Origin: the human T2T-CHM13v2.0 reference genome, Homo sapiens
Reading direction: 5' to 3' (one strand)
Length of the DNA: 64,000 bases
Assembly: GCF_009914755.1 (NCBI RefSeq)
Contig: NC_060936.1
A program made the translations under genes and the position numbers. A model generated the notes under the pieces. That model did not search any database and was not told where the DNA came from. It saw nothing but the letters and a program-made list of their open reading frames with translations. Shown in pieces: positions 36,040 through 60,865 of the stretch; position 1 is the first letter of the stretch, and each line of letters opens with the position of its first letter.

Positions 36040-36346
<307 letters not shown>

Positions 36347-36892
36347 AACTTAAATCTTATCAGGCAAACTTCTGATGAAAATGGCACCTCAAGCCTCAGC
36401 ATGACACCTTTTAAAATCATCATGATGAGCATTTATTGAGCACCTATTATGTACCAGACATTGTGCTGAAATTTTCATTGCTCCATCTAATGATGAGGCA
36501 TGTTTAAGTATAATCCAGCAAGGCATCTATTACTTTGCAGATAAGGGACCTGAGGTTCAGGGAGGTCACTCATATACTCAGCTGACACTTATTAAGCACC
36601 TATATGTGCCAGAGTCTGTCCTGGGTGCTGGGGATGTGCAGCGAGCCAAACAAGATCTCTGCCTTCATGGAGCTAGTGGGAGCACAGATAAAAAACAAAC
36701 AAAAAAAGTCTATCATTGTTATTCCAGGTGGCAATGCTGAGTGTGATGAAGAAAAGTAAGGCAGGATCGAGGGACAGAGAGGGACGGGGTGGGGGTATTT
36801 TGGCTAGGATGGTCAGGGAAGATGTCAGGAAGGAGGTGACATTTGAGCAGAGAGCTGAAGAGAGGGAATGTGATGCACAGGTCTGAGGAAGA

Positions 36893-37603
<711 letters not shown>

Positions 37604-37637
37604 AAGGGAAGGTCATTTTTAAAGGATCACTGTGGTG

Positions 37638-37750
37638 TGGATAAATGGATGGATGGATGGATGGATGGATGGATGGATGGATGGATGCATGCATGCATGC
37701 ATGGGTGGGTGGACAGATGGGTGGATGAATGGATGGATAGGTGGATATGT
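37638..37750 (+). repeat. (GGAT)n microsatellite
   Basis: Tandem ggat with a gcat/gggt interruption. Confidence 0.9.
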
Positions 37751-38187
37751 GTATGAATGGATTTCCATGGATTCCCTTGCACTGACCAGAGGTGAGAGTA
37801 TCTATAGCTTATAGGTTGATAAAATATGTCCTATGTATGTCCCAACTCAGTTTCCAAATACATCTCAAATCAGCTCCCTCAGGGGACCCCAGACAAGCGC
37901 ATTCCTTAGTGAATGAGATTCATATAGAGGAATTTTATTCCAAAATTCAACAAGGAAACTAGGTCTTCCTCCCAAGGAAACCATATGGAGAAGGCCACTA
38001 GATGTGGCCTGAGAATGTCAAGAAGAAATTTCTTGCCTTTAATGTCTAACTAGGCTAACTCCCAACTCCCAAAGAACAGATTGGCACACCACCACCCCAC
38101 CACTACTACCTGGAATCCCCTAATCAGGACCACTAGCAACACAAGACTCTTTCTCAAGCCCTTGGGCAAGAAAATCTGGTTTCTCCA

Positions 38188-38578
<391 letters not shown>

Positions 38579-38643: not shown

Positions 38644-38970
38644 CTCCAAGTCCTTCTCAAGCTCCAGTCCAGCCTCCATCAGATTGTGCTCAAATTCCTC
38701 CCGCTGCTCCTTCCTCTCCTCCTCCAGGGCATCGAGCGGTCCCAGCTCAATGTCACCTGGGCCCCCAGCATGAGGCTCCTTGCCTGTCTCCCCATTGGAG
38801 ACGATAGCCAGCGAGTGGCCAGGGAAGCCTTGGGCCAGGTGCACCCCGCGTTTCCGGTAGTGGTAGGCAAGTACATAGTCGACCTTCCTCTGACTGTCAT
38901 GGAAGTGCATGCGGCTAAGACGGGCCTCCAAGGACACAGGCTCATTGGCATCCAGATAGTTGTTGATGAC
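38644..38970 (-). CDS. ANO2: ANO2 coding exon 3 (327 nt; [10 protein letters not shown]...GLELEKDLE, aa 70-178)
   Basis: Acceptor ctctctctggccAG|GTC and donor GAG|GTGAGT, phase 0/0. Encodes the anoctamin N-terminal motifs RKVDYVLAY and [16 protein letters not shown]. Contained in ORF 38485..39000(-). Confidence 0.97.
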
Positions 38971-40223: not shown

Positions 40224-40408
40224 AGAGCTGCTGCGGGTGCTCTCTCCACCGCAGGGCTGGCCAGGATCTCTGTTGGAACCGCCCTGCAGACCTGGGGCCC
40301 GGGGACCTGGCATCTTGAGACACTGCTGTCCATGTTTGGGGCCCTGGCCCCCTCTGGACCCTGCCTGAGGGCTCAGCCGGCGTGGGGAGCCAGGGAGCAG
40401 GGGTATAT
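40224..40408 (-). CDS. ANO2: ANO2 coding exon 2 (185 nt; [17 protein letters not shown]...GGESTRSSS)
   Basis: Acceptor tccctctcacAG|ATATA and donor TCT|GTGAGT. G from exon 1 plus AT gives Asp8; 22+185=207 nt (69 codons). Contained in ORF 40116..40436(-). Confidence 0.95.
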
Positions 40409-40913: not shown

Positions 40914-42162
40914 AGCGTGGAGCCACCAGCAGGAGCTCCTTCGGATCATGGCTGTCATAATCTCTCATAATTCCCAGATAAGAAAGGGGTGGCATTGAGC
41001 AAGTCAGGGTGGTGGGGGGGCACTGCCTGGAGAGACACCTTGAATTAATACCAAAGGCTTAGGCTTTGGGCCTCTCCCGTGGCAGCAGCACCAGCTGGCA
41101 CCCTGGCCAGCCCCCACCTCCCTCGGGGAGAGAGCAAGGACAGACCAAGGGGGTCCTCTGAACAACTGAACAAAGGACTGTCCTCCAGTGTCCTTTCAGG
41201 GTCCTCACGCACCTGCTGCCTCTACCCAGGCCCCAGAGGTCTGCAGCCCCTTCTCGGCAGGAATGCAGGACCACTTCAGAAAAATTCCAGTGTCTCCCCT
41301 GAAGGGAAAAGTCCCTAGTAGGTGATGGAATGACTGCATGCTAGAATTGGAGGGAACTGAGAGAGTAGATAGTCCAGCTGCACTTTGTACAGACCCCACT
41401 GGAACCGCGAGTTGCCAAGGTCTCAGCGCAGGTCAGACTCAATCTATTCTCTCCTCTGAGAAACACTTCCTAGAAAAGCAACACAGCCAGTGCCCAGGCT
41501 TAAACCTCAGCTCTGCCACTTGCCAGCTCTAAGACCTCTTTGTGCTTGTTCTCTAGCTGTAAAATGAGAATCTCAAACTTGCAGGATTGCAGTGAGAATG
41601 AGAATAAGATAATGCCTGCAAAGCACCCAGAGCAGTGATTAGCCTGACGGCATGTGATCAAAGGCTGTGATTAGAATCGTTAGTGTTTGCATTTTAACCT
41701 CCAAGTGAGCAGAAGTAACACCTTATGTCTCCAACTCAGCCCTAAGCACCTGCTCAGTGAATGAATGAACAAAAGCAACTCTTCCAGTCTGTTGAAACAG
41801 AACTCCCGGCCCTTTGCCAACTTGTGGAGCAGCCCCTTAGGTGCTCAGCCCTCCAGCGCAGTTTCAGGGGTCCTAGAACATTCGGTCCCTGCACTTGAGA
41901 AACATAATCTCTTTATGAAGACAGAGCTGACATGCAGGAAACACAACTGTGACCAGCAGAGGAAAGCTTTCATCATTCCTTTCTATACTGTGGGTTCTAG
42001 TCCACACTGTGGGAGACCAGAAAGACTAAGTCAAAGTCGGCTTCTGGGGTAACTGAGCCAGAGCTGGGTCCTGGAGGGTGGGTAGCTTCTGAAAGGCCAG
42101 GAGGCACGGGAGGCACTCCCTAGGGAGACAGCACAGAAGGGCAGGCGTGGGCACACCTTGTG

Positions 42163-42562
42163 GGAGGAAAATGAAAACTCAGGACCCCATATCACTCTGC
42201 CGAAAGGAAAATATTAAGCCGAAAGCTGAGTCAGGCAAGACGCTGCCTTTCCTTTTGTTCCTAAGCAGACAGCTACAGATAAAAGGCTAGATAGCTCCAC
42301 AGGCAGCTACTCTATATTCACCTTGTCCAAAGCGCAAGATGAATACATCATTGATAATTCCCTAACTGCTCCTTTTCTCTTGCAACATGCAGATTCCCAC
42401 AGCCTCCCTCTTTCCCCCACAGCCTGCTTTTCCCCGTTAAATATTGAAGCCCTCAAAATGATCTTTGGAGAAAGACACAGACCTCTCTTCCAACCACATT
42501 CTTAACGTTGGCAAAATAAACGAAATTGATTGAGGCCTGTCTCAGATATTTTTTGGTTTACA
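42163..42562 (+). mobile_element. ERV1 solo LTR (MER4 group)
   Basis: gaaaactcaggacccc...ctgcctttccttttgttcctaagcagacagctac...aataaa...ttttggtttaca; possible TSD tgtg. Confidence 0.7.
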
Positions 42563-45500
42563 TGTGATGGGGCTCAGGCTCAGGGCTCTAAAAAAGGGGC
42601 TTCCTCCCTTGTGCCCAATCTCGCCTCCTCCCACTTCCCTTGTGCCTTCCTGCATGCCTGCCCCACAAGTGCCTGAGAACAGAACTTGGAACAGAAGGAC
42701 TCTACCCCAGAGAAGACCTGGAAACCTCTAGATGCATGTCTAAAAAGCCCAAGACCACTGGATACATCACTGGGGAACATGATAAAGATGATGTTCACTC
42801 AAGGGCCACCCTACCCTGGCAGCTACATTCAGATTTGCACCTGTGGCTCAGAGTAGCTCAGATTCAAGGGCAATGCAAAGCTTTGGTCCAGCTGCTGTCC
42901 AGGAACCACCATCCCCTAAAGGTGCCACCTGGAGTTTGAGGCTGACATTCAGGGCCCTCACTAGCCATCGCAGTTGCTCCCCCGGCTCGCTCTCTGACAC
43001 ACGGATCCGGCTGCCTGGGAACTCTGCTTCCCTTCTCTCCCTCTCCCCACAAGTGATTAGAGCACAGCACACGGTTCAGCCATCCCAGCCGTCCCAGCTC
43101 TGGAGAGGCACTCCAGGCAATAAAGACACAAGGGAGCCACCTTCAGACGTGAGAGGAAGGCCAAGGGGAACGCGAGTGACGCCTGCCCTCAGGAAGGGGA
43201 AGGGTGAGGCAGGTGAGCACACACCTTGAGAACTCCCTAAGAAGCTTAGAAGAGGTGAATGAGGTCAATTAGAAGGAAAGGCCATCGTACACAGCCCGTG
43301 GAACATGTCACCCATTTGGAAAGAATCTTTCCTTCCTTCACCGTTGCCTTGGCTCTCCTTCCACGCTGCCTTGAACAACAGATCCTTGGGTGTTCATAAC
43401 TGCAATGCCGTGAGGGTGGGGGCATGGCTTACCCACGTCTGGGTTGAGGAGATGGATGTCGTAAGGCTGGGGCCTGGGCCTTTCTCCACGTTCCAGCTCT
43501 CTCCCTGGGCACTCTCATCCACTCCAGAGACCTTCATTGTCACCTATTGCTGACGACACTTAAGTTTCACTCTAACTCTTGCTCTCCTGCAGGCACCAGG
43601 TCCACACATTCCCCTGCCTGCTCAGCATCTACACTTGGATGTTTCCCAGCCCCTCAAAGTCAACATGCCCAAATCCAAACATACGATCTTCTCCAAAACA
43701 GGATTCTTTTTCAGCATTTCCTGCTCCTGCAAATGCTCCACCAAACAGTCAACGAGCTGGAAATCTAGAAGCAGCCTTGATAGCTGTTCTTCCTCATGCC
43801 CCATGTCCAATTTGGTACCGATCCTATAAACTTTACCCCTGAAATGTCTGCCAAACCCCTCTGTTCTTCACCCTTCCATGAGTCCCACCCTAGTGCCAGC
43901 TGTCAGCCTCCTTCCCCTGGAGGACGGCGATGCCCTCCTAACAGATCTCCCTGCTCCCTGTCCCTGTTCCCCACAAGGCAGCCAGGGGTCCTTACAAACA
44001 TCCATCTGGCCAGGACACCCTCAAGAGCACAAACTTATGGGGCTCCCATGGCTCTCGGGCTGGGACCCTGCATTCTGCCCCGCCAGTCTCCACCCCCTCT
44101 CTCCTGCTGGCTCCCTGGGGTCCCGCCATACACCTCTGCTCTAGCACACCAGCTCCCCAGCCCAGCATCCTACATGCATTCTTCCCGCTGCCTGGACCAT
44201 GCTTCCCTACACACTCTTCATCTAGTTGTGGGCCACCTACTATTTTGGTCCTTAGGGACCCAGAAAATCCAAAGCAATCCATTCTTGCTTCAAAAAGCTG
44301 CTAATCAAGGTGTAAGACTGGAATATTCAGATACTACTAAGAAAGCTAATTTCCTTCCAACCTAGACATGAGTAAGGTTCCACAAGTTGGGTTGTGCAGG
44401 ATTGGGAGGAGGTGCAGGCCACGAGGACCCATGTGATGTTGCCGGAGGAAGGCCTCACCACCAGCACCCTGCCCCAAGACAAACCCTTTCTCTGAGCTTA
44501 GTTTTTACTTCGGTGATTTGGGAGAAGGTGTCATTATTATATCTTTTCCTCATAAAGTGAGTGTGATGATACAGTAAGAGAAAAGATTAACATTCCTTGG
44601 AAGTACATGAGCTATGAAAAATGCACAGGATAATTATCAAACCCTACTTCAGGACGTCCATGCTGCCTCCTTCATCCGTCTCTTCTCCACTTCATTCCAG
44701 CTGCTCTGCTTCAAGTCCCTGGAATTCCCTTTCTCTCCCAGCCCACTGCCTGCTCACCTGCCACTTCCTCCTGGAAGCTTCCCCAGACTAAGCAGGAGAA
44801 GCACTGGCTGTCTGTCCCCACCATTATTAGTACAAGTGGGTTTACTCATCAGGGATGACCACACATTTTTTAATCCTTTCGGTACAGTCTTGGCTGTTTC
44901 ATATCAGTGGCCTCAGGTGAGACCTCTGTCCCTTCTCATTGGAGCCAACCTCACCACTCGCAGGACTGCAGGTACCTTAGGTCACTCTACAGAGGCAGAT
45001 GAAGAAGGGGTAGGATCAGAGACATTGAGAGAAAAGAACAGAGACTGAAGGATGGAGAGGCCCAAATCTCAATGAAAAAACAGGTGAAGCCTGTTTTCAG
45101 AGTCTCCCCAAACCAGTCCTTCCGAAATCTCCTTTCTGGGCCTGCCCAAAGCCCCTCCCCAGCTTCTGTGCCCTGTATTCCACCCTCCACTGTCCATCTA
45201 CCATCAGGGCTTCCAACGACCATTTCCTCATTTAACCTCTGGCTCTTTTGCTAATCAGCTAATTTACACCAAAGTACAAACAGCCCATGCTACGTCCTGA
45301 TATTGGTAAAAAGCATTTTGAAAACATTAAAAGGTTCTGCAGAAGGCATAAGCCCACATGCTGATGGGGCAGAGGTCATAGCCTGAAGGCATCATCTCTA
45401 ATGGGGTGAGAGGAAGATGGCTGAGAGGCAGAAGTTCTGGCTGGGACCTCCAAATAATGCTATATCCCCAGACAGTCTGGCAGGAACCTTCAAGGTCACT

Positions 45501-46010
45501 GCATAGGCCGAGAGCTAGAAAGGCCCTTCTGAACAGGGGGGAGGGGCAGGCACAGAATGTGGAGAGCTGGTAAGAGTGAGAGAAGCTTGGGCATGTAGCT
45601 GACAGGGGAAACACCAAAGCCAAGGAGACCAGGAGACACAGTCAGGAGCAAGACAGGGCCAGATTGTGCAGAGAAAGGGCAGAAAGTGAGTTCACTAAGC
45701 ATGGAATAGGGGGCAAGGTGAGTCAGCAGGGACCTAGGCAACTTCCAGAGCCTCCAAGAGAGACCAGCAGCAGGAGGAGGAGGTGTCCTGAGGGAACTGG
45801 ACTTCTGGGCAGTTGGGCTTTTCCTCTGAGTTTCCCTCTTGGCATCATTACTGTCTCACTCCTAACTCCTGGTGGCTGAAGTATGAAGGGCCCTGAAATG
45901 AGGGGCCACCTCCATCCCCAACCTCCCAAAGCCACTGCTTCCAGCAAAACCAGACAGGCCCAGGGCTGCCCTGTGGGAGACAGAGCATCCGCACTCTCCC
46001 AGGCTTCTGC

Positions 46011-47730
46011 ACTAGTCTACTTTCCTTCCTCACTAGTCTACTTTCCTTCCTCACTAGTCTACTTTCCTTCCTCCGTAGTCTACTTTCCTTCGTCACTAGT
46101 CTACTTTCCTTCCTCACTGGTCTACTTTCCTTCCTCTCTAGTCTACCTTCCTTCCTTACTCGTCTACCTTCTTTCCTTATTAGTCACTTTCTTACCAGTC
46201 TTCCTTCCTTACTAGTCTATCTTCTTTCCTTACTCGTCTACCTTCTTTCCTTATTAGTCACTTTCTTACCAGTCTTCCTTCCTTACTAGTCTATCTTCTT
46301 TCCTTACTCGTCTACCTTCTTTCCTTATTAGTCACTTTCTTACCAGTCTTCCTTCCTTACTAGTCTGTCTTCTTTCCTTACTCGTCTGCCTTCTTTCCTT
46401 ATTAGTCACTTTCTTACCAGTCTTCCTTCCTTACTAGTCTATCTTCTTTCCTTACTCGTCTACCTTCTTTCCTTATTAGTCACTTTCTTACCAGTCTTCC
46501 TTCCTTACTAGTCTATCTTCTTTCCTTACTCGTCTACCTTCTTTCCTCATTAGTCACTTTCTTACCAGTCTTCCTTCCTTACTAGTCTATCTTCTTTCCT
46601 TACTCGTCTACCTTCTTTCCTCATTAGTCACTTTCTTACCAGTCTTCCTTCCTTACTAGTCTGTCTTCTTTCCTTACTCGTCTACCTTCTTTCCTTATTA
46701 GTCACTTTCTTACCAGTCTTCCTTCCTTACTAGTCTATCTTCTTTCCTCACTCGTCTACCTTCTTTCCTTATTAGTCACTTTCTTACCAGTCTTCCTTCC
46801 TTTTCTATCTTCTTTCCTTACTCGTCTGCCTTCTTTCCTTATTAGTCACTTTCTTACCAGTCTTCCTTCCTTACTAGTCTATCTTCTTTCCTCACTCGTC
46901 TACCTTCTTTCCTTATTAGTCACTCTCTTACCAGTCTTCCTTCCTTACTAGTCTATCTTCTTTCCTCACTCGTCTACCTTCTTTCCTTATTAGTCACTCT
47001 CTTACCAGTCTTCCTTCCTTACTAGTCTATCTTCTTTCCTTACTTGTCTACCTTCTTTCCTTATTAGTCACTTTCTTACCAGTCTTCCTTCCTTACTAGT
47101 CTACCTTCTTTCCTCACTCGTCTGCCTTCTTTCCTTATTAGTCACTTTCTTACCAGTCTTCCTTCCTTACTAGTCTACCTTCCTTCCTTACTAGTCTACC
47201 TTCTTTCCTTATTAGTCACTTTCTTACCAGTCTTCCTTCCTTACTAGTCTATCTTCTTTCCTTACTCGTCTGCCTTCTTTCCTTATTAGTCACTTTCTTA
47301 CCAGTCTTCCTTCCTTACGAGTCTACCTTCCTTCCTTACTCGTCTACCTTCTTTCCTTATTAGTCACTTTCTTACCAGTCTTCCTTCCTTACTAGTCTAC
47401 CTTCTTTCCTCACTCGTCTGCCTTCTTTCCTTATTAGTCACTTTCTTACCAGTCTTCCTTCCTTACTAGTCTACCTTCTTTCCTCTCTCGTCTGCCTTCT
47501 TTCCTTATTAGTCACTTTCTTACCAGTCTTCCTTCCTTACTAGTCTACCTTCTTTCCTCACTCGTCTACCTTCTTTCCTTATTAGTCACTTTCTTACCAG
47601 TCTTCCTTCCTTACTAGTCTACCTTCTTTCCTCACTCGTCTACCTTCTTTCCTTATTAGTCACTTTCTTACCAGTCTTCCTTCCTTACTAGTCTGTCTTC
47701 TTTCCTCACTCGTCTGCCTTCTTTCCTTAT
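46011..47730 (+). repeat. Pyrimidine-rich VNTR: ~7 x 21-bp units, then ~21 x 74-bp higher-order units (left arm)
   Basis: 21-mer actagtctactttccttcctc. The 74-mer has subunits of 21+15+17+21 bp; attagt recurs at 46179, 46253 ... 47655, with one 70-bp variant (46771-46841). Confidence 0.97.
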
Positions 47731-50309
47731 AGGCCTTCCTTCCTTGTGATTACCCAGGGTTTGATGGAAGGAGCCACATTCTGTTTAGCTTTAATTCCCA
47801 ATGTTTTATACAATACCTGGGAAGTTAAATGGGTCTGCAATGAACGAACAGAGATGTGAAATACTGCACGTATATCATCCCCACCCCAACCTCCCAAAGA
47901 ATGGTCATTTGCTGTGCTTGGAGCCTGGCATGATGGTGTGGGTAATGGGGGTATAGGGGGAAGGCCAGCAGTGGATGAGTGTTGGGAGATGAAGTGGTCC
48001 AGACGGGTAGGTGCGGACTCGATCAGGAAAGACCCTGTATGTCATATATGACAATTTGGTCTTCATCCTAAGAAGAGTAGGCAACCATGGTCCTGCTGAA
48101 GGCATGCCCTGGTAGAAGCCTCAGAGAGACCTGGGTGCTTTCAGATTGAAGACCCTCCCCCTGGACCCCTCCTCAAGTGCCCTGGGCACTTCATTTCAGT
48201 TAGAATCAACATTTACACCCAGGTCTCATCCTGCTTCTTGCATGAATTGGACCCAGGACAACAGCCAAAATTTGAAGCTCCAGGCTTAAAATTTGGGCCC
48301 AATGGCCCTCCTGATTACCCCACCCCTTGCCCCAGAGGTCCTGCAGAACAGCACTTCCCTCAGTCTCTATATGCAGCCACAGTAACAGGACTGCTCTCCA
48401 GTTCCCTCCATACTCACACACACATAAAATCCATTTGCATATCCGCCTCCTGGGCTCTGCTTGTCTTATAGCCTTGGCTCAGAATTAGCCCTCTCTCTCC
48501 AATGCACATGCCCCCCTTTCCTGATGATGCCACCACCACAGTTTGCATCCTTGCCTTGTTCCCCTCTGATAGAAGTAAGCTGGCCTTCCTACTGCTTATC
48601 TTGCTTCTCTCTCATCCTGGGCTCACACCACAGCTACTATTACCATTTTGAAACAATCTCACCAAGTTAGTCCCACTCTGTGGTTGCCTACTCTTCTTAG
48701 GATGAAGACCAAATTGTCATATATGACATACAGGGTCTTTCATGATCGAGTCCGCACCTACCCGTCTGGACCACTTCATCTCCCAACACTCATCCACTGC
48801 TGGCCTTCCCCCTATACCCCCATTACCCACACCATCATGCCAGGCTCCAAGCACAGCAAATGACCATTCTTTGGGAGGTTGGGGTGGGGATGATATACGT
48901 GCAGTATTTCACATCTCTGTTCATTCATTGCAGACCCATTTAACTTCCCAGGTATTGTATAAAACATTGGGAATTAAAGCTAAACAGAATGTGGCTCCTT
49001 CCATCAAGCCCTGGGTAATCACAAGGAAGGAAGGCCTATAAGGAAAGAAGGCAGACGAGTGAGGAAAGAAGACAGACTAGTAAGGAAGGAAGACTGGTAA
49101 GAAAGTGACTAATAAGGAAAGAAGGCAGACGAGTGAGGAAAGAAGATAGACTAGTAAGGAAGGAAGACTGGTAAGAAAGTGACTAATAAGGAAAGAAGGT
49201 AGACGAGTGAGGAAAGAAGATAGACTAGTAAGGAAGGAAGACTGGTAAGAAAGTGACTAATAAGGAAAGAAGGTAGACGAGTGAGGAAAGAAGACAGACT
49301 AGTAAGGAAGGAAGACTGGTAAGAAAGTGACTAATAAGGAAAGAAGGCAGACGAGTGAGGAAAGAAGATAGACTAGTAAGGAAGGAAGACTGGTAAGAAA
49401 GTGACTAATAAGGAAAGAAGGCAGACGAGTGAGGAAAGAAGATAGACTAGTAAGGAAGGAAGACTGGTAAGAAAGTGACTAATAAGGAAAGAAGGTAGAC
49501 GAGTGAGGAAAGAAGATAGACTAGTAAGGAAGGAAGACTGGTAAGAAAGTGACTAATAAGGAAAGAAGGCAGACGAGTGAGGAAAGAAGACAGAAAAGGA
49601 AGGAAGACTGGTAAGAAAGTGACTAATAAGGAAAGAAGGTAGACGAGTGAGGAAAGAAGATAGACTAGTAAGGAAGGAAGACTGGTAAGAAAGTGACTAA
49701 TAAGGAAAGAAGGCAGACGAGTAAGGAAAGAAGACAGAAAAGGAAGGAAGACTGGTAAGAAAGTGACTAATAAGGAAAGAAGGTAGACGAGTGAGGAAAG
49801 AAGGTAGACTAGTAAGGAAGGAAGACTGGTAAGAAAGTGACTAATAAGGAAAGAAGGCAGACGAGTGAGGAAAGAAGATAGACTAGTAAGGAAGGAAGAC
49901 TGGTAACAAAGTGACTAAAAAGGAAAGAAGGCAGACGAGTGAGGAAAGAAGATAGACTAGTAAGGAAGGAAGACTGGTAAGAAAGTGACTAATAAGGAAA
50001 GAAGGTAGACGAGTGAGGAAAGAAGGTAGACTAGTAAGGAAGGAAGACTGGTAAGAAAGTGACTAATAAGGAAAGAAGGTAGACGAGTGAGGAAAGAAGG
50101 TAGACTAGTAAGGAAGGAAGACTGGTAAGAAAGTGACTAATAAGGAAAGAAGGTAGACGAGTGAGGAAAGAAGATAGACTAGTAAGGAAGGAAGACTGGT
50201 AAGAAAGTGACTAATAAGGAAAGAAGGTAGACGAGTAAGGAAGGAAGGTAGACTAGAGAGGAAGGAAAGTAGACCAGTGAGGAAGGAAAGTAGACTAGTG
50301 AGGAAGGAA
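46085..50309. repeat. Large inverted repeat (arms ~46085-48087 and 48681-~50309; spacer 48088-48680)
   Basis: 47731-48087 is the reverse complement of 48681-49037, with only 3 mismatches seen. The VNTRs extend the symmetry outward. Confidence 0.97.
49038..50309 (-). repeat. Same VNTR inverted: ~16 x 74-bp units plus terminal 21-mers (right arm)
   Basis: actaat recurs from 49108 to 50210 (13x74 + 2x70 bp). Reverse complement of the left array. Confidence 0.97.
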
Positions 50310-51629
50310 GACTAACAAGGAGATAATCTCCAGAATGGGAGGAGAGTCAACATGAAAGTATGAAGAAGGATCCATGGAAGCAGAAGCCCTCAGCTCTCCC
50401 TAGAGCTGTCAGGGAGGCTCCCAGAGGACACGGCTTTTGCATGCAACTAGAAGAATTAACTAGGCATCTACCAATGGGCAAAGGAGGAAAGGAGACTCCA
50501 GGAAGAAAGGCAGTGATTTGTATGATCCATTGCAATGGGCCTCGGGCCTGGCTGGTTGAGATTATGGCCCTCCTGAGAGCAATGACTGCTAGCCTCCTCA
50601 CCCTCATTTTCTGCCTGCGGAGTCCCCACAAGGGGCCAGCTACGTGGTGAGATTTGAGGGGCACAGAAAGGGCCCTATCTGGTGTATAGTGCACACTTCT
50701 TAACATGGCCTACAAGGCCCTTTACCATCTTTCTTGTCAACCTTCCCACTGTCATCTCCTGCTAGTGACTCTCCTCTTGTGCACACACAGCCACACATGC
50801 ACAGAAACTCCAGAGAATGAACTGCCTGCAGCTCCCAGAAGGTGATCTGCTTTTTTATTTGCCCTTCTGTCTCTAAACTTCTCTCCCCAACCATACAACC
50901 ACCCCAAATTCCACTCTGTTAACGAGGTTCACAATTTATTATAATGTTAAAAGATTTTAAGCAAGAGAACAACATAATTAGATTACATTAGAAAGATGGC
51001 CCTGGCTGTAGTGAGGATAAATGAGGTGCCAGGAGAAGGATGGATAAATGGATGGGTGGGTGGGTGGATGGACAGGTGGGTAGGTGAATAAATGGATGGA
51101 CAGATTCCTAACTGTTTTTCTGATACACGTACCCTTTATAAAATTCACAAAATTTTATTTCACTGGTCACACTGCTACTCAAAACTTCCACTGTCTTGAG
51201 GCTTACAAACAACTTGGCATCCAAAGACTTACACAGCTGACTGTTACATGTCTCTGCTGCCAAATCCCTCCATCAGACAAGAACATTCCTCTTTAGTCAA
51301 ACCTGTCCCCAGACTGATGCTCACTCTGTGCCTCTGCCTAGGCTGTTACTTCTGTTTGGCATGTCCTCTCCACTAAGCTAAGTCATACCCAGGTAAAGTC
51401 CTACTCCTATACCACGCCTTCCCTAACCACTGAAGGAAGTCCTCTAGAAGTTCAGATTTGCCTTTTTTATCTCTGTATTCCTAGCACAGGACTCTGGATG
51501 CAATAAGAGCTCTAAAAGCTTTTGGAGGTAACGATGTAGGGAACTGAGGAATCCTTTCTTGTGAGTGAATTTTGAAACAGGATGGATTCCCCTGTGCTGA
51601 ACTGAACATAGAACTGCCCTACTAGTAAC

Positions 51630-51830
51630 AACTACAACACTAATCGCTAACACTTTACATGTGTCAGACACTGTTTTAAACACTTTACATGTATCAATTT
51701 ATGTAATCTTCACGATAACCCTGAGGTAGGTACCATTGTTGTCACCATTTTACTGATGAGGAAACTGAAGCACAGAGAGGCCAGGTAAGTTGTCCAAGAT
51801 CACCAGCACACTCAGTCCACACTTTTCTCC
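51630..51830 (-). mobile_element. MIR
   Basis: aaccctgaggtagg..ccattttactgatgaggaaactgaagcacagagagg..tccaagatcac. Confidence 0.75.
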
Positions 51831-53289
51831 ACTAAGCAATGCTGTGCAAAAGGAAGATAAATGGCCAACATTACTTGGTAAATCCCTTCCTGGCTGGACA
51901 TTCTTAACATCCCTCACCCTTTAAAAAGGTCTTTTTACAAATAGCATTTATAGTCAATGATCAGACCCAAGATCCTAACAGTTAAGACCAAGAGAATAAG
52001 AATAAGAGAGAATTATCTTATTGAGAATGTAATCGAATGAGAAATTCATTTCAGGAAGTGCTTCTCTCAATGACAAAATTTACAAATTGGGACTTGGATG
52101 AGTTGCCTAAATGAAACCTACTCATTGGCAGCCCATCCTACACTTTGGTTTGGAGTATGGCTGATGAGATTAAGGTATAAATGCCCCTCCTTACATGTCA
52201 TGAGGAAGTAGCCAGTGTACAACATAAAATTGGTCAAAACTGGTCTGTTGGCTCATTAATTATAACCTGTTTTGCAACAGATTTGCTCTGTTTGCTCTTC
52301 CATTGACATCCTGGGTATATTCAATGGGCTCTCTCCGTGTCCCTCATCATTCTCCACCACCCATAAACATCTCCCATCTCTTCCTCCTGGGTGTAACCAA
52401 GATTAAAGATATCATTCTTATTCTCATCTCTCCAAAGTAGGAATAGGTTTCTCCTACCCAAAATGGACTGGGACTGAGGTTAAAGCCTAAAACAGCTCTT
52501 CCAATCATAGCTCCCACTCTCAGGCTACTGAGGACTTTGGAACTGGGTGAGATGCTGGGGGTTATGGAAGGATGCAGCAGACATGAGGGATAGGAACAAT
52601 CCTGAGAATTTTATAAAATATCCCAAATATATTTATTTATAGTCTGTAGGAAAGTGCTCAGAAAATGCCTCTGTTACAGCTTTTTTAACTGGTATGAGTG
52701 AATTCATATTGTATAGACAGTGAGCTTAATGGGCTAGTTGCACACTGCTTGAGGATAGGCATAGTACCTATCTTATTCACCTCTGTATCCTAAGCCCTGA
52801 GCATATGACCTGGTACATAATAATCTTTGAGGGCAGAGTGTGAGAAAAGGAGGTTCAATAGCAAACATCCACCACAATGGTAACACCATGTGAAAGTCGA
52901 GAGGATTGTTCATGAAGGCACTGGAGACACACCTAGGGACTCCCATCATTACTGGGTCAGACTTTAAGGGTGACTGGAGATAGCATAATAACTAGTGGGG
53001 GAAAATTTTGAGAAATACATTTTTTATTTTCTCATAACTTCTCCTCCACCAGGCTACTGTGGTCTAGCCAAATGCAGATCGCTCTTATTCAAAACCAGGA
53101 TATGTCCTCATTTGAGCATCTGTGAAATTATGGCCACCATATCCCAAAGGACAAAACTGGGAGAAAAAAAGTTCTGGAGAAGGGGCACAGAAGCATACAA
53201 GACCTATTCTGTGTGGAGAAGGAGCCTGTCATGGGAAGCCAGACTTAAAATATTAGGATTCCGCAACTGGAAAAAGACAAATGGGAACA

Positions 53290-53430
53290 CAGAGGGGTTC
53301 TCAACCTTGGATATTCATTAGAATCACCCAAGAAGGTTAAAATATTGATGTCTGGGTTTCACCTCCACAGATTTGGACTTAATTTATCTGGGGTGATTCT
53401 ATGGTACAACCAGGGTTGAGACCATTAGTC
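53290..53430. mobile_element. MER5A-like DNA transposon relic
   Basis: ggttctcaacctt...ttagaatcacc...gtgattct...ccagggttgagacc terminal pattern. Confidence 0.7.
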
Positions 53431-53514
53431 TAGAGAATCACTAACAGAGTCAAAACAGGGAGCACAGATCTAGTCACAGATCTTGAAATATTAGAAGAAA
53501 GAAGCACCACTATT

Positions 53515-55085
53515 TGGGTGGATTTACATTTCCCTAATGACCAATAATGTTGAACATCTTTTTACGTGCTTACTAGCAATTTGCATATCTTCTTTGGAGA
53601 AATGTCTATTCAGAGCTTTTGCTCATTTTAAAATCAGGTTCATCTTTTTATTGTTGAGTTATAAGAGTTATTTCTATATTCCAGATATAAGTCCTTTGTC
53701 TGATATATGACTCACAAATATTTTCTCCCATTCTGTAGGTTGTCTGTTCAATTTTCTTGATGGAGTCAAGAGAAGCACCTGCAACCAAAAATGCTCTTTT
53801 GGAGCATTTTTAATTTTTATGAAGTCCATTTTGTCTATTTTTTATCTGATGTGTCACGGTTTGACTATCGGTGTCTCTTCCAAAATTCATATTGAAACTT
53901 AACCCTCAATGCAGCAGAATTAAGAAGTGGGTCCCTCTGGGAAGGATTAAGTCATAAGGGCTCTGCCTTTACAAATGGGTTAGTACCCTTATAAAAGGGC
54001 TCAAAGGAACAGGCTAGACCCTCTTTTTGCCCTTCTCCCCCCAAGTAAGGACACAAAAACAAAGTGCCATCTTGGAAGCAGAGAGCAGCTGTCACCAGAT
54101 ACTGAATGCTGACACCTTGATCCTGGACTTCCCAGCCTGGAGAACTGTAAGAAATAAATTTCTGTGCTTTATAAACAAGCCAGTCTCTGGCATTTTGTTA
54201 GAGTGAGCAAACTGAGACAGAATGCTTATGGTTTTGGTGTAACATTAAGAAAACATCACCTAAACCAAGGTTGCGAAGATTTACTTCTATGTTGTCTTCT
54301 AGTTTTATCAATTTAACTACTACATTTACATCTACGATTCACTTTGAGTTAATTTTTATGTATGAGTGAGGAAAGGGTCCAACTTCATTCTTTGTACATG
54401 ACTCTCTAGTTGAATTCAGCATAATCAAAGCTCCAGAATTTTTATAGAATTTTATTTTTATAGAATATTTACTTGGATGCAACATCATCAAAGCTCCAAA
54501 ATTCTATACCATAAAGTGACAGGCACTTAGGTTGTTTCCATATCTTGACCACTGTGAATAATGTTTCAATGAACATGGCAGTGCAGATACCTTTACCAGG
54601 TAGTGATTTTACTTCTTTCAGTATATACCCAGAATAGGAATTTCTGGGTCATATGGTGGTTCCATTTTTTTATTTCTTTAGCAACTTCAAACTGTTTTCC
54701 ACAATGACTGCATGAAACTGCATTCCACCAACAGTGTATAAGGGCTCCTTTTTCTCCACATTCCTTCCAAAAGAGTTATCTCCTGACTTTTTTATATTAG
54801 CTATCCTAACAGGTATGCGATGATATCTCACTGTAGTTTTGATTTGCATTTCCCTAATGACTGGTGACGTCGAGGACTTTTTCATATACCTGTTGGCCAC
54901 TTTTATGTCTTCTTTGGAGAAATGTCTATCCAGGTCATTTGCCTATTTTTTAATTAGGTTATTTGTATTTTTGCTATTGGATTGTGTGAGTTCCTTATAT
55001 ATTGTGAATATTAACTTCTTATCTGATACACAGTTGCCAAATATTTCCTTCCACTTCATTGGCTGCCTTTTCATTTTGTTTCCTT
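53515..55085 (-). mobile_element. L1M fragments interrupted by an MST-type MaLR LTR (~53852-54219)
   Basis: Reverse L1 ORF2 motifs (tttggagaaatgtctattc) twice. LTR runs tgtcacggtttg...gccatcttggaagcagagagc...agaactgtaagaaataaatt...gagaca. Confidence 0.75.
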
Positions 55086-56073
55086 TGTCTCTTTTTCATG
55101 GATCACTTATTTCTATTTATTTGCATGTCTAGTAAGTTTTATGGTATACTGGACATTGTGAATGATAAAACATTATCTTCCTATCGAGGGGGTTGGAATT
55201 TTTTTTTTTAACTTTCTAGCAGGAAGTTCAACTATGAGCTGATCACTTTGAGCTTATGTAGGAGTTTGCTGTTGTTGCCAGGGTATGCTGTGGAAAATCC
55301 AAGGTGTTTCTCAAGAGGCTCTAATCTGGAAGGGTTCAGCCTCTAAACTCTTGTCTTCCCTATTGATCTTTCTAGGCTTGGCCTTAGTGTTCTTCAGGGA
55401 CCATCCAGAGTAAATTTTTCTCTACCGTGTGCTTCTTACTCCTAAAACAAAGCCCCTGGGGGTCTCAGCTACATGTCTGGAATGTTAGGACATGCTCATG
55501 AGGTCTTGCCACTCTGGCTGGGATGGACTTTCAACATCTCCCAGTACCGTTCGACTTCTACCATTTCTGTTCTGATCTCAATGCTGCAGCAGCTTCTCTC
55601 TGGCAAACTTCATATGCCTCACCCTGTGCATGTGAAGCCTCACTCTTAGCCAAGGACTCACGAAGGGTCCCCAAAGAGCCCTCTGGGCACCTCCTTTCAC
55701 ACACATTCCTCCTCTCTGTGTTCTTCCCCATAATTTCCAGGCATTTAATAAGCATTTCCAGGCATTTTGCTGCTCCAAATTTTTATCTCTGTCTTCTCAG
55801 TTCAGTGGGATCCTTTCCTCCATGTGGACTCCAGATCCCTGACCCCTGGTAAATAGCCTGCACTCAGAGGGCTAAATTTCTCTTCTTTCAGGGATTGTAC
55901 TTCTATGCTGGTGCTTGTTCAGTACCTGAAAATAACTGATCTACATATTTTTTTCCAGTATTATAATTTATGACAGAATGTCTATCCCAGGACCAGTTAT
56001 TCCATTATGGCCTCAGCCTCCCAAAGTGCTGTGATTATAGGCATGAGCCACTGCACCCAGTCTATTTTATTTA

Positions 56074-56802
<729 letters not shown>

Positions 56803-57617
56803 TCAAGAACACTTGATTCAACATAATCAAAAGCTCCAGAATTCTAAACCACAAAGCACAGAAGAGATGACTTTGCCTAGAAGTTTCTCCCTGCTCTTCT
56901 TTTCAACATTTCAATTTGAGCACCTGCTCAATGAAACACCCACTCATTGAGCACCTACCGTGTGTCAGGCTGCAGTAAGGATCAAAGATGAGTTAGATCC
57001 ATCCTCCATCCCTGCCTTTGAGTATCTCTCCCCACCTGTGGTATGCAGAAGTGTGAGGTGGGTTAAATCTGTTAGGTTGGTGGAAATTTGGGAAAGGCTC
57101 TGTTGAGCAAGGCTTAGAAATATGGAGATTTGACATGAACAGTCACTCAGTGGACTGGGTTAACGCTCTTATAAGTAATTTATTATTATCCACACCGATG
57201 GTGAAGGATACTATATGAGTCACAGTAATGCCATTCCTGTTTTCCGAAAGGTAGAAAGCGCATGGAAGAACAGGCATGGAAGGCTTCCAGGGGCCAGGGC
57301 CAGAAGTAGCACATGTCACTGTTCAGATTCCTTTGGCTAAAATTCAGTGTCATAACTAACTGTAAGGGAGGCTAGGAAATAAGGTCGAGCTGTGTGTTCA
57401 GGAAGAAGAGGAGAACATGGATTTTGGTAAGCAGCTAGTAGTCTCTGTCACAGAGGCCTACCAAAAATGAAAAGCTTGGTGTAGCATGTTCACACCTTAT
57501 ATTGTGTTAAAGTTATACATTTCCACATTTATCTCCCCAAGTAGGCTCTCAGATCCAGTTCAGCACCCAGGACAAGGCAGGGATATGGTAAATGCTTATT
57601 AAATGGTTTTTAAATCA

Positions 57618-57661
57618 ATGGATGGATGGATGGATGGATGGATGGATAGATGGATGGATGG
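57618..57661 (+). repeat. (GGAT)n microsatellite
   Basis: Tandem ggat. Confidence 0.9.
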
Positions 57662-58119
57662 TGAGCTTGTGTGACAGTAGTTGGCCAACAGATTCTGTTG
57701 CTTCTTGAGGCTCCTCCTGGAATGCCACATATCGATGTTGTCAATTTAGAGAAAGATGCTTGCCTTCCCGTTTGATATGGAAGGTGGGCATGCCTCCAGT
57801 ACACCTATAAACTGGATCAAATCATTTAGGCACAAGTTAACTACATTTAGCAAAATTTAGCATTTGAATTTAGATAGATTGTATAGAACCCATTCCTGCA
57901 CCCTCTGATTCTTAAACTGGTATTATCATCAGTTCTCTAACGTATGTTTTAGAAGTCGAAGAGCCACACAGAAGCCGTCCAAGTGGAGGGTCCTCCCCAT
58001 CATTGAGGCACACACTTCTAAGACCAGGAAGCCTAAGCATGCTTGGGGATTTGCAGGCAGAGGAGCTTTTCCTTCTCCAGTGACAGGCTTGTCTTGCTCC
58101 TAGGTTCAGGCAAAACCAC

Positions 58120-59610
58120 AGTAACACACTACTTCACGTCCATGAGGATGGCTATAATAAAAAGATGAATAATAACAACTGCTGGTGAGTTTGTGGAGAA
58201 ATCAGAACCCTCATAAATTGCTGGTGGGAATGTAAAATGGTACAGCCACTTTGGAAAATAGTCTGACAATCAAAGTTAAACATATGACCCAGCAATTCTT
58301 CTCCTAGGTATATGACCAAGAGAACTAAAAAACATGTACACACAAAGACTTGTACTTGAAAGTTCATAGCAGTATCATTTATAGTAACAAAAACTAGGAC
58401 ACACAAATGCCCATGAACTGGCAAATGGATAAACAAAATGTAGCCTATCCACCCAAGGAAATAGATTTCAGCTATAAAAAAGAATGAAGTACCGATATGT
58501 GTAACAATACACATTAACCTTGAAAGCATTATGCTAAGTGAAAGAACACAGACACAAAATGCCACACATTGTATGGTTCCATTTACATAAAATGTGTAGA
58601 ATAGGCATATCCATGGAGACAGAAAGTGGATTCGCGGTTGCCAAGGGCTAGGGGGAGGGAGGAAAAATGAGCAACTGCCATTGAGTGTGAAGTTTCTCTT
58701 TAGGATGATGCAAATGCTTTAAACTAGATTGCGGTGATGGTTGAACAACTCTGTGAATATACCAACAGCCACTGAACTGGACACCTTTAAAGGGTACATT
58801 TTATGGTATGTGAATTGTATCTCAATAAAGCTGTTTTTCAATGGAATTCCTAGAATTAAAAATTACAATTATGGAAAAGAAAAATCCATTGGGTGGGATT
58901 AACAGCAAACTGGAGACGGCAGAGAAAGGATCAGTGAAGTTAAAGATGGATCCAACAAAAGTAATCAAATCTAGAGAGCAGAGGATAAAGATTGGAAAAA
59001 TTTAACAGCACCTCAGAAACTAGTAGGGCGATACCAAACAAGCTAACGTTCATGTGACTGGAGTTCCACAAAAAGAAGAAAAGAAAAGCAGATCAAAAAT
59101 AGTTGAAGAAGAAAAAAAATAAAATAAAAATAGTTGAATAAATAGTGGCTGAAATTGTCTCAAAATTTGATAAAATACAATAACTTGTAATAACAGATTT
59201 AAGAAGTCCAGCAAACTCAAGTTAAAAAAAAAAAGAAAACCACACCTAGATACATCAGAGTCAAAATACTGAAAACCAAAACTGAATATCAAATCTTGAA
59301 CACTACCAAATTCAAAAGAGATTATACATTAATAAGATAATGAAGAATATTTAAATATGAATTTAGGCTAGCTTCTCGTCAAAACAATGGAGACCAAAAG
59401 AGTGATACCCAGAGGGCTGGGGCTGGGGGTGGAAAAAAAGCTATCAAACCATTCATCTATATCCAATGAAGTATCCTTCAAAAATAAGGATGAAATAAAG
59501 ACATTTTTCATAAAAACACAAGTTGAGAGAATGTCACCAGCAGAACTGCACCTCTAACAATGCTACAGGATGTTCTGCAGGCTGAAGGGAAAGGATAACA
59601 AATGGAAATG
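58120..59610 (+). mobile_element. L1MB-like 3' end (~58120-58835) followed by an old L1M ORF1 region
   Basis: L1 3' UTR motifs ending gaattgtatctcaataaagctg, then degenerate ORF1-like sequence. Confidence 0.75.

Positions 59611-60825: not shown

Positions 60826-60865
<40 letters not shown>

What the first reader, a model, noticed from the sequence alone, without database searches (positions are those of the whole stretch)
46085..50309. ~4.2 kb near-perfect palindrome with VNTR-bearing arms in ANO2 intron 1
Seen: the left arm (~46085-48087) and right arm (48681-~50309) are inverted copies around a 593-bp spacer. The ~357-bp non-VNTR inner parts differ at only 3 positions I could find (cagggt/c, tgaac/t, gatcag/t). 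Inference: such identity means a recent inverted duplication or ongoing arm-to-arm conversion. The ANO2 pre-mRNA passes through both arms and could fold a >1.5 kb dsRNA stem (an ADAR, Dicer or MDA5 substrate, or a splicing modulator). In DNA it could form hairpins and let the spacer invert by intrachromatid recombination.
Basis: partly seen in the sequence, partly recalled or inferred. Interest (0 to 1): 0.85.

Follow-up and report, generated by a model that had tools for sequence, protein, structure and literature searches.

The report
Young VNTR-bearing inverted duplication in ANO2 intron
A 2-kb piece of the first intron of the human ANO2 gene, mostly a 74-base tandem repeat, has been copied in reverse 593 bases away, giving a real but probably harmless small palindrome whose transcript should fold into a very long RNA duplex.

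Summary
The left arm is 46085-48087 and the right arm 48681-50309, inverted copies around a 593-bp spacer. "Near-perfect" fits only that inner part (99.2%). The repeat-bearing parts are about 97.5% alike where aligned, and the left arm is 374 bp longer (21.7 against 16.7 units of 74 bp).

The inner arm and spacer occur nowhere else in CHM13, so this is a local inverted duplication, not a mobile element. It lies in intron 1 of all three RefSeq ANO2 mRNAs. In silico the sense transcript forms 1600 arm-to-arm base pairs. Each repeat arm alone is almost structureless.

Best reading: a hominid-age inverted duplication, 4-8 My if unconverted (interval 0.9-25 My), that is probably neutral. It is a likely nuclear ADAR substrate and a possible substrate for spacer inversion. 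Cruciform extrusion and MDA5 or Dicer roles are unlikely. A RefSeq p300/CBP-dependent enhancer overlaps the right arm.

I found no paper on this locus. It is a new member of a known kind, of modest interest.

The parts
46010..46191 (+). Outer 21-bp minisatellite of the left arm (8.7 copies). Its first roughly 3.5 units (46010-46084) lie outside the inverted homology.
   Evidence: TRF row; sequence read; homology edge at 46085
46085..48087 (.). Left arm of the inverted duplication (2003 bp)
46127..47730 (+). Left tandem array: 74-bp unit, 21.7 copies, 19% purine on the + strand. The unit is made of four diverged sub-repeats related to the outer 21-bp unit.
46968..47337 (+). 370 bp (5 units) of the left array with no partner in the right arm. 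Its exact placement depends on the alignment.
47731..48087 (.). Left inner non-repeat part (357 bp), 3 differences from its partner
48088..48680 (.). Spacer, 593 bp, single-copy in CHM13
48681..49037 (.). Right inner non-repeat part (357 bp), the only other copy of 47731-48087 in the genome
   Evidence: (99% identity, E 3.3e-178)
49038..50267 (-). Right tandem array: 74-bp unit, 16.7 copies, 82% purine on the + strand
50203..50309 (-). Outer 21-bp minisatellite of the right arm (5.1 copies). The homology ends inside it at 50309.
48681..50309 (.). Right arm of the inverted duplication (1629 bp)
48637..49836 (.). RefSeq functional element 'P300/CBP strongly-dependent group 1 enhancer' (a 1200-bp window). 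It covers the last 44 bp of the spacer, the right inner part and about 800 bp of the right array.
   Evidence: annotation only, not tested here

Best explanation
This is a genuine, locus-specific inverted duplication, that is, a small palindrome with a spacer.

Origin. A roughly 2-kb segment of ANO2 intron 1 was copied in reverse orientation 593 bp away. The segment consists of a 21-bp minisatellite, a 74-bp higher-order tandem array built from it, and 357 bp of unique sequence. The left arm is probably the original, because its 21-bp array continues about 3.5 units beyond the homology whereas the right arm is cut off inside that array. This is a weak inference. The array already had many units when it was copied. 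Since then each arm has changed on its own by unit gain or loss and point changes, giving 21.7 against 16.7 units.

Age. If the arms have not converted each other, the 0.84% divergence of the unique part dates the event to about 4-8 million years ago, with a wide interval of 0.9-25 My. Arm-to-arm conversion would make it older.

How it behaves (inferred, not shown):
1. In DNA, the arms are homologous enough for recombination between the arms within one chromatid, which would flip the 593-bp spacer, and for arm-to-arm gene conversion. Cruciform extrusion from duplex DNA is improbable at this spacer length.
2. In RNA, ANO2 transcription runs through the right arm first (a pyrimidine-rich, unstructured RNA), then the spacer, then the left arm (purine-rich, also unstructured). 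The only stable fold is a roughly 1.6-kb arm-to-arm duplex. It would be a nuclear ADAR substrate and would be discarded with the intron.

The most likely overall status is a selectively neutral structural quirk, not a built device.
For: Structure: (coordinates, 3 differences in 357 bp, 35 in 1629).

Single locus: the query 47731-48680 finds only itself and the right inner arm in CHM13. In one search the array finds only 66-72% matches outside this locus.

Not a fold-back assembly artefact:
- The arms differ at 35 aligned sites, by 5 units and in unit make-up. Unit strings are CCFCCGHAIAJKELMNEOBB against ABBDPBQARADDSAD.
- The spacer is asymmetric.
- The RefSeq enhancer window spanning the spacer/right-arm junction keeps its source length of exactly 1200 bp, as do 54 of 66 such features on chr12.

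Array copied as an array: a rare 70-bp unit with a 4-bp deletion occurs in both arms (one on the left, two on the right). The left one sits at the same unit index from the outer end as one of the right ones, and the innermost unit is identical.

Age: 3/357 = 0.84%, Poisson interval 0.17-2.46%. The mutation rates used, 0.5-1.0e-9 per site per year, are recalled.

Transcription through both arms.

RNA:
- Inner 1307 nt: minimum free energy -928.8 kcal/mol, z = -44 against 30 shuffles.
- Whole 4331 nt: -3361.9 kcal/mol. 1600 of 1881 pairs are arm-to-arm, 0 are within the right arm, and the longest uninterrupted helices are 265 bp.
- Arms alone: -0.018 and -0.086 kcal/mol/nt, against -0.29 +/- 0.05 in 13 control pieces of the same intron.

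Known behaviour of such structures:
- Spacer inversions and arm-to-arm conversion occur in X palindromes (PMC8327919, passages).
- Long, nearly perfect inverted duplicates in human pre-mRNA are weakly expressed and some are heavily edited (PMC7006430, passages).
Against: - No other haplotype, ape orthologue, RNA-seq, editing table or dsRNA data could be consulted. Age, polarity of the duplication, spacer toggling, conversion and RNA pairing in cells are all untested.
- The aligned array part is more diverged (32/1272 = 2.5%) than the unique part (3/357 = 0.84%; Fisher p = 0.06). That fits faster array mutation, but equally fits conversion acting on the inner part of an older duplication.
- Off-register alignments of the arrays are nearly as good (93-96%) as in-register ones, so unit-by-unit positional homology rests mainly on the shared short unit.
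- The overlap with a rare annotated enhancer class (66 such features among 5142 enhancers on chr12) argues against calling the region inert.
- Energy-model folds ignore proteins bound to pyrimidine-rich and purine-rich RNA, and helicases.
Confidence: 0.72

Rival explanations
1. An older inverted duplication whose inner arms are kept alike by continuing arm-to-arm gene conversion, as in sex-chromosome palindromes, rather than a young one.
For: The inner unique part is 99.2% identical while the aligned arrays are 97.5% identical (Fisher p = 0.06). Conversion maintaining more than 99% arm identity is documented for X palindromes, where within-species arm divergence is below 0.2% against 0.87% between human and chimpanzee (PMC8327919, passage).
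Against: Three differences in 357 bp, spread over the segment at 61, 242 and 327 bp from the spacer, is not the near-zero divergence seen in converting palindromes. There is no long identical tract next to the spacer: the second to fourth innermost array units already differ between the arms. Arrays mutate faster anyway, which alone can explain the contrast. The recalled PRDM9-type 13-mer is absent from the palindrome: 0 of the 5 window matches lie in it.
Confidence: 0.25
2. The repeat arms are a regulatory module. They would form an array of transcription-factor sites acting as a p300/CBP-dependent intronic enhancer of ANO2 or a neighbour, and the inverted duplication doubled it.
For: RefSeq places a 'P300/CBP strongly-dependent group 1 enhancer' at 48637-49836, with its centre at about 49236 inside the right array. 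Only 66 such features exist on chr12. The arms carry GATA-like cores at 5.5 per kb, against 1.6-2.3 per kb in the rest of intron 1 (the motif is recalled and repeat units are not independent).
Against: This is annotation only. The source experiment and cell type could not be found (one search returned 0 papers). Short reads in two near-identical arms and a tandem array map ambiguously, so a peak summit inside the array is unreliable. The left arm, which has more units, carries no such feature. No conservation or reporter data were seen.
Confidence: 0.15
3. The RNA duplex is functional. By pairing, the arms hide dense arrays of splice-site look-alikes, or recruit ADAR or other dsRNA-binding proteins, and so tune ANO2 intron 1 splicing.
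For: On the sense strand the first-transcribed right arm has 70 overlapping pyrimidine-tract-plus-YAG matches (43 per kb, against about 1 per kb in the rest of the intron). The left arm has 63 GTRAG (31.5 per kb, against about 2 per kb), including 21 GGTAAG. The predicted duplex would bury both sets. The arms have no competing self-structure.
Against: The motif counts are a by-product of the repeat's composition, and no splice-site scoring model was run. RefSeq shows no exon in or between the arms. No Rfam family matches: the single hit has E 0.73, scores below threshold and lies at the left outer edge. The unequal, fast-changing arms give no sign of selection for pairing.
Confidence: 0.08
4. 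Assembly artefact: a fold-back chimeric read built into CHM13.
For: Palindromic chimeras do occur in long-read libraries (general knowledge).
Against: The arms differ at 35 aligned positions, by 374 bp and in unit order. A 593-bp unique spacer separates them. A 4.2-kb structure is spanned by single long reads. A RefSeq feature projected from another reference covers the spacer/right-arm junction at unchanged length.
Confidence: 0.02
5. A mobile element with long terminal inverted repeats (fold-back type transposon).
For: Inverted arms around a short middle resemble such elements.
Against: The inner arm and spacer have no other copy in the genome. The outer ends of the arms are unequal and sit inside a minisatellite, with no flanking target duplication seen. 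There is no convincing ORF: the 5 ORFs of at least 80 aa are mostly repeat-encoded.
Confidence: 0.01

Closest known systems
Large X- and Y-chromosome palindromes (arms over 8 kb, over 99% identity; PMC8327919)
   Same: Two inverted arms around a unique spacer. The expected behaviours are arm-to-arm conversion and spacer inversion by recombination between the arms. The spacer size, 593 bp, is inside their reported range of 77 bp to 358 kb.
   Different: The arms are 1.6-2.0 kb, not over 8 kb. Identity is 97.9% overall (99.2% only in 357 bp). It is autosomal and intronic, has no genes in the arms, and the arms are mostly a tandem repeat.
Inverted-repeat-flanked (NAHR) human inversions (10.1101/2021.12.20.472354; PMC3961182)
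   Same: It has flanking inverted repeats well above the 200-bp mark used there.
   Different: The studied inversions in PMC3961182 are 5.1-226 kb. The invertible segment here is only 593 bp. No inverted allele has been seen. Most inversions under 2 kb in that survey are L1 twin-priming events, which this is not.
Long, nearly perfect inverted duplicated sequences in pre-mRNA / putative MDA5-type dsRNAs (over 300 bp, over 96% paired; PMC7006430, PMC11838218)
   Same: It meets both thresholds in silico, lies in an intron like most of that class, and sits in a gene of restricted expression (the last point is recalled).
   Different: That class is dominated by pairs of transposable elements (over 90% of predicted dsRNAs are repetitive). 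This one is a local duplication whose arms are a purine/pyrimidine-asymmetric tandem array, and at about 1.6 kb it is far longer than the medians reported there (75-297 bp). I could not see whether it is listed in that preprint's Table S5.
Palindromic AT-rich repeats and short-spacer quasi-palindromes that extrude cruciforms (reference list entry in PMC8804325; PMC10164571)
   Same: It has inverted symmetry, and fold-back is possible if the region becomes single-stranded.
   Different: It is not AT-rich (GC 40-51%). The 593-bp spacer compares with near-zero spacers in those repeats, and a change from 12 to 100 bp already lowers inverted-repeat-induced recombination 300-fold in yeast duplex DNA.

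Membership tests
Large sex-chromosome-type palindrome (criteria of PMC8327919) | Inverted repeat arms longer than 8 kb | tested here: not met
   The arms are 2003 and 1629 bp. The criterion was read.
Large sex-chromosome-type palindrome (criteria of PMC8327919) | Arm-to-arm identity above 99% | tested here: not met
   Identity is 97.9% over 1629 aligned positions. Only the inner 357 bp reach 99.2%.
Large sex-chromosome-type palindrome (criteria of PMC8327919) | Ongoing arm-to-arm gene conversion | not testable with these tools
   This needs orthologues or population haplotypes.
Segmental duplication (at least 1 kb, at least 90% identity; thresholds recalled) | Two copies of at least 1 kb at 90% identity or more | tested here: met
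   1629 aligned bp at 97.9%. Only 357 bp per arm is non-tandem sequence, so a repeat-masked screen would probably miss it (inference).
Long nearly perfect intramolecular dsRNA (over 300 bp, over 96% paired) | Stem over 300 bp with over 96% of bases paired | tested here: met
   The inner stem is 357 bp with 3 mismatches. 1600 arm-to-arm pairs cover the 1629-nt right arm. The thresholds were read.
Long nearly perfect intramolecular dsRNA (over 300 bp, over 96% paired) | Both arms in one transcript | tested here: met
   Both arms lie in intron 1 of all 3 RefSeq ANO2 mRNAs. This rests on annotation, not on RNA data.
Long nearly perfect intramolecular dsRNA (over 300 bp, over 96% paired) | Duplex forms in cells (A-to-I editing clusters or dsRNA capture) | not testable with these tools
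   No RNA-seq or editing tables were available. A search for ANO2 plus A-to-I found 0 papers.
Inverted-repeat-mediated polymorphic inversion | [quoted passage not shown] | tested here: met
   The threshold was read.
Inverted-repeat-mediated polymorphic inversion | Both spacer orientations present among haplotypes | not testable with these tools
   Only one haplotype is readable. Reads and other assemblies are off.
Cruciform-prone palindrome (PATRR-like) | AT-rich arms with little or no spacer | tested here: not met
   GC is 40-51% and the spacer is 593 bp.
Transposon with terminal inverted repeats | Multiple dispersed copies in the genome | tested here: not met
   Only this locus matches. Closed regions are not shown, so absence is not absolute.
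Minisatellite / VNTR with higher-order unit | Head-to-tail array of a unit of at least 7 bp | tested here: met
   74-bp unit, 21.7 and 16.7 copies, with 21-bp sub-repeats.
Minisatellite / VNTR with higher-order unit | Copy number varies among people | not testable with these tools
   The only data are the two arms of one haplotype. They differ by 5 units, which shows the array does change.
Known structured RNA family (Rfam) | Match above a family's gathering score | tested here: not met
   One sub-threshold match (21.6 bits against 45, E 0.73) at 45914-46058.

The most novel reading that the evidence does not exclude
The inverted duplication arose on the human or African-ape lineage. It created one of the longest non-transposon intramolecular RNA duplexes in any human pre-mRNA: about 1.6 kb, built from two arms that are unstructured on their own. 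The duplex is hyper-edited in ANO2-expressing neurons and masks more than 130 splice-site look-alikes. Its 593-bp spacer toggles orientation among people, next to or inside a p300-dependent enhancer. On this reading the locus is a lineage-specific regulatory and structural polymorphism of ANO2.
Probability: 0.1. Interest if true: 0.6.

Novelty: new member of a known kind. Interest (0 to 1): 0.33.

Why it matters
If the predicted duplex forms, this locus is a clean natural test case for how cells handle a kilobase-scale, near-perfect, non-transposon dsRNA confined to an intron. The questions it opens are ADAR hyper-editing, nuclear retention, and what happens when intron turnover fails.

At the DNA level it is a small autosomal palindrome that probably falls between catalogue thresholds. 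It is too short for palindrome surveys, its spacer is probably too long for non-B DNA inverted-repeat motif catalogues, and it is mostly tandem repeat for segmental-duplication screens. The spacer limit for non-B motif catalogues and the segmental-duplication thresholds are recalled. Loci of this kind may therefore be under-counted as sources of small inversions and of mapping ambiguity. The annotated enhancer peak on only one arm may be an example of the latter.

No evidence here points to a phenotype.

Tried and rejected
Mobile element: rejected, because the inner arm and spacer have only these two copies in CHM13.

Known RNA family: rejected (one chance-level hit).

Coding potential: 5 ORFs of at least 80 aa overlap 45800-50600. 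They are repeat-encoded or short and unsupported. I did not search them against protein databases.

Recombination-hotspot motif: the recalled 13-mer has 5 matches in the window against 2.7 expected, and none lies in the palindrome.

H-DNA (triplex): the longest pure pyrimidine or purine run is 16 nt, so I did not pursue it.

Breakpoint microhomology: reading the junctions showed none at 48680/48681. A 7-base inverted match near 48667-48673 and 50310-50316 is also part of the repeat unit, so I give it no weight.

Which arm is the copy: there is only a weak argument, from the longer 21-bp array on the left. It needs an outgroup.

Literature.
- ANO2 with 'inverted repeat' (1 paper, bacterial, irrelevant).
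- ANO2 with 'VNTR' (7 papers). One passage of PMC8096271 lists ANO2 among introns overlapped by tumour-specific repeat changes, without coordinates. PMC8498101 only has ANO2 in a methylation gene list.
- ANO2 with 'inversion' and 'structural variant' (4 papers).
- ANO2 with 'palindrom' (11 papers).
- ANO2 with 'A-to-I' (0 papers).
- None of these describes this locus.
- PMC8804325 reports a balanced-translocation breakpoint in an ANO2 intron at an hg19 coordinate. By my rough conversion, which uses recalled hg19 gene bounds, it lies about 79 kb from the palindrome, so I set it aside.
- The source study of the RefSeq enhancer class was not found (0 papers).
- Supplementary tables were closed. 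Three kinds may list this locus and could change the 'not in print' statement: Table S5 of PMC11838218, the inversion call sets of 10.1101/2021.12.20.472354, and VNTR catalogues.

Full report
**1. What is there**

- The repeat finder reports inverted arms 47162-48087 / 48681-49606 (926 nt, 97% complementary, 593 nt apart) and 46085-46674 / 49720-50309 (590 nt, 95%). The remaining pairs among the 145 found are shifted registers of one tandem repeat.
- Tandem Repeats Finder finds a 74-bp period array of 21.7 copies at 46127-47730 and one of 16.7 copies at 49038-50267. Each is capped on its outer side by a 21-bp minisatellite: 46010-46191 (8.7 copies) and 50203-50309 (5.1 copies).
- A gapped alignment of the left side with the reverse complement of the right side defines the left arm as 46085-48087 (2003 bp), the right arm as 48681-50309 (1629 bp) and the spacer as 48088-48680 (593 bp).
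- There are 35 mismatches in 1629 aligned positions. Two stretches occur only on the left: 4 bp, and 370 bp (five units).
- The 357-bp non-repeat inner parts differ at three sites only: 47760/49008 (T/C), 47845/48923 (C/T at a CpG) and 48026/48742 (G/T).
- 'Near-perfect' therefore fits the inner part (99.2%). It does not fit the whole 4.2 kb, where the aligned array positions differ at 32 of 1272 (2.5%) and the arms are unequal.

**2. It is real and local**

- A search of the whole CHM13 genome with 47731-48680 returns only the query itself and the right inner arm (99% identity, E 3.3e-178).
- The array finds nothing above 72% identity outside this locus. The weak hits are other pyrimidine-rich minisatellites.
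- It is therefore not a dispersed repeat or a transposon with terminal inverted repeats. Matches in closed regions are not shown, so absence elsewhere is not absolute.
- An assembly fold-back artefact is very unlikely. The arms differ in sequence, length and unit order, and a unique asymmetric spacer lies between them.
- In addition, a RefSeq enhancer feature that straddles the spacer/right-arm junction keeps its source length of exactly 1200 bp in CHM13. So do 54 of the 66 features of that class on chr12, while the other 12 changed length. This suggests that the reference the feature came from has the same stretch. That is an indirect inference.
- Elsewhere in the window, inverted pairs within 10 kb are at most 187 nt and 89% complementary (13 pairs in 1-46000, none in 50400-64000).

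**3. Anatomy of the arms**

- Reading the units shows that the 74-bp unit is four diverged sub-repeats (about 21, 21, 15 and 17 bp) related to the 21-bp unit that survives at the outer edge. The array is thus a higher-order repeat that grew out of a simpler minisatellite.
- Coding each distinct unit by a letter gives CCFCCGHAIAJKELMNEOBB plus a last unit on the left, and ABBDPBQARADDSAD plus the same last unit on the right.
- Only 3 of the 16 positionally aligned unit pairs are identical.
- Both arms nevertheless draw on the same few variable positions, and both contain a rare 70-bp unit with a 4-bp deletion (one on the left, two on the right). In the alignment the left one pairs with a right one at the same index from the outer end.
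- I read this as an array that already had many units being copied as a block, after which each copy evolved separately.
- This positional argument is not strong, because shifted registers align almost as well (93-96%).
- The left arm's 21-bp array runs about 3.5 units beyond the homology, whereas the right arm stops inside it. That makes the left arm the likelier original. Later expansion on the left would look the same.

**4. Age**

- Three differences in 357 bp is 0.84%, with a Poisson 95% interval of 0.17-2.46%.
- With recalled rates of 0.5-1.0e-9 substitutions per site per year, and divergence accruing on both arms, this gives 8.4 or 4.2 million years. The interval spans 0.9 to 24.6 My.
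- The duplication is therefore 'recent' on a primate scale but cannot be called human-specific. Any arm-to-arm conversion would make it older.
- The higher divergence of the arrays (Fisher p = 0.06) fits either faster array mutation or conversion focused on the inner part.

**5. Setting**

- The three RefSeq ANO2 mRNAs all splice a first exon (62743-62806, or 63698-63779) to 40224-40408. The palindrome therefore lies in intron 1 (22.3 kb in the select transcript) and both arms are transcribed on the minus strand.
- No masked repeat of 100 bases or more is annotated between 40917 and 54874.
- The one annotated element is a 'P300/CBP strongly-dependent group 1 enhancer' at 48637-49836. It is one of 66 such features among 5142 enhancers on chr12.
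- Its midpoint, about 49236, is inside the right array. I could not find its source study. Read mapping in two near-identical arms is ambiguous, so I treat it as a lead only.

**6. RNA**

- Folded as the ANO2 sense strand, the inner 1307 nt have a minimum free energy of -928.8 kcal/mol, with the two 357-nt parts paired end to end. Thirty dinucleotide shuffles average -449 +/- 10.9, giving z = -44.
- The whole 4331-nt stretch (46000-50330) folds at -3361.9 kcal/mol with 1881 pairs. Of these, 1600 join the right arm to the left arm, none lies within the right arm and 54 lie within the left arm. Uninterrupted helices reach 265 bp. Fifty of the pairs are G-U.
- The arms are strongly strand-asymmetric: 19% purine on the left and 82% on the right, on the plus strand (skews).
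- Each array alone is consequently almost structureless as RNA: -0.018 and -0.086 kcal/mol per nt, against -0.29 +/- 0.05 in 13 control pieces of the same intron. Nothing competes with arm-to-arm pairing once the second arm has been transcribed.
Whether it forms in cells is untested.

**7. What the duplex would and would not do**

- The structure meets the published working definition of a long, highly paired dsRNA (over 300 bp, over 96% paired).
- A preprint predicts 2,018 of these in the human genome. All but one would be removed by splicing or are non-exonic. The reported median stem lengths are 75-297 bp, and more than 90% of all predicted dsRNAs are made of repetitive elements (PMC11838218, passages).
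- An earlier survey found that such inverted duplicates are depleted even from pre-mRNA, are weakly expressed, and that some are heavily edited (PMC7006430, passages).
- The most likely fate here is promiscuous nuclear A-to-I editing, followed by disposal with the intron. The model has 925 paired adenosines.
- MDA5 sensing would need the intron to reach the cytoplasm. Efficient dicing of long dsRNA in human somatic cells is not expected (recalled).
- No Rfam family matches.

**8. DNA**

- Homology of 357 bp at 99% inside 1.6 kb at 98% is well above the 200-bp flanking repeats seen at 132 of 183 sequence-resolved balanced human inversions (10.1101/2021.12.20.472354, passage).
- Spacer inversion is common in X palindromes: about half differ in orientation between species (PMC8327919, passage).
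- A flip of the 593-bp spacer is therefore plausible. It would be invisible to most short-read methods.
- Cruciform extrusion from duplex DNA is not plausible. In yeast, lengthening an inverted-repeat spacer from 12 to 100 bp lowered inverted-repeat-induced recombination 300-fold in duplex DNA, whereas in long single-stranded regions spacers up to 30 kb did not matter (PMC10164571, passages).
- Fold-back after a nearby break and resection is the more credible route to instability.

**9. Comparison and verdict**

- It works like a miniature sex-chromosome palindrome, and like the long intronic inverted duplicates studied for dsRNA.
- It is not a member of the 'large palindrome' class, since arm length and identity were tested and not met. 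It is not an AT-rich cruciform-forming palindrome, and it is not a transposon.
- It does meet the sequence criteria of a segmental duplication, of an inversion-prone inverted repeat and of a long highly paired dsRNA.
- I found no paper describing it. Supplementary tables that might list it were closed.
- I rate it a new member of a known kind, real and tidy, most likely neutral. Two leads are worth a cheap check: editing of the arms, and the spacer's orientation and arm lengths across haplotypes and apes. The enhancer annotation is a third.

Noticed in passing
window 46085-48087 and 48681-50309 (minus strand): On the ANO2 sense strand the first-transcribed right arm holds 70 overlapping pyrimidine-tract-plus-YAG matches (43 per kb, against about 1 per kb in the rest of intron 1). 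The left arm holds 63 GTRAG (31.5 per kb, against about 2 per kb), 21 of them GGTAAG. The order is 3'-like sites first and 5'-like sites second, the order that could define a pseudo-exon. The predicted duplex would hide both sets. The motifs are recalled and no scoring model was run.
   Followed up: partly
window 48637-49836: A RefSeq 'P300/CBP strongly-dependent group 1 enhancer' overlaps only the right arm, with its midpoint inside the tandem array. Features of this class are fixed 1200-bp windows (54 of 66 on chr12 keep that length in CHM13). Calling it on one arm only may reflect ambiguous read mapping.
   Followed up: partly
window 46127-47730 and 49038-50267: Each tandem array alone is nearly structureless as RNA (-0.086 and -0.018 kcal/mol/nt, against -0.29 in 13 controls) because of extreme purine/pyrimidine asymmetry. 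On sense transcription, the non-template strand of the left array is purine- and G-rich, a composition that favours R-loops (inference from general knowledge, not tested).
   Followed up: no
window 31657-38478: A cluster of inverted repeat pairs of 169-186 nt at 73-89% complementarity, probably Alu-type elements (family not checked), lies just beside the coding exon 38644-38970.
   Followed up: no
G000 chr6:691465-692927 and chr12:5820386-5820697: Pyrimidine-rich minisatellites with 66-72% similarity to the ANO2 array occur at many places. One is a long array on chr6 and another lies in ANO2 itself, about 116 kb away. Common descent or convergence of simple sequence was not resolved.
   Followed up: no
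window 40917-54874: No masked repeat of 100 bases or more is annotated across about 14 kb. This includes the two tandem arrays themselves, so the soft-masking used for this assembly does not flag this repeat.
   Followed up: no
window 45914-46058 (minus strand): A sub-threshold Rfam match to WT1-AS_2 (21.6 bits against a gathering score of 45, E 0.73) overlaps the left outer minisatellite. I take it as chance.
   Followed up: no
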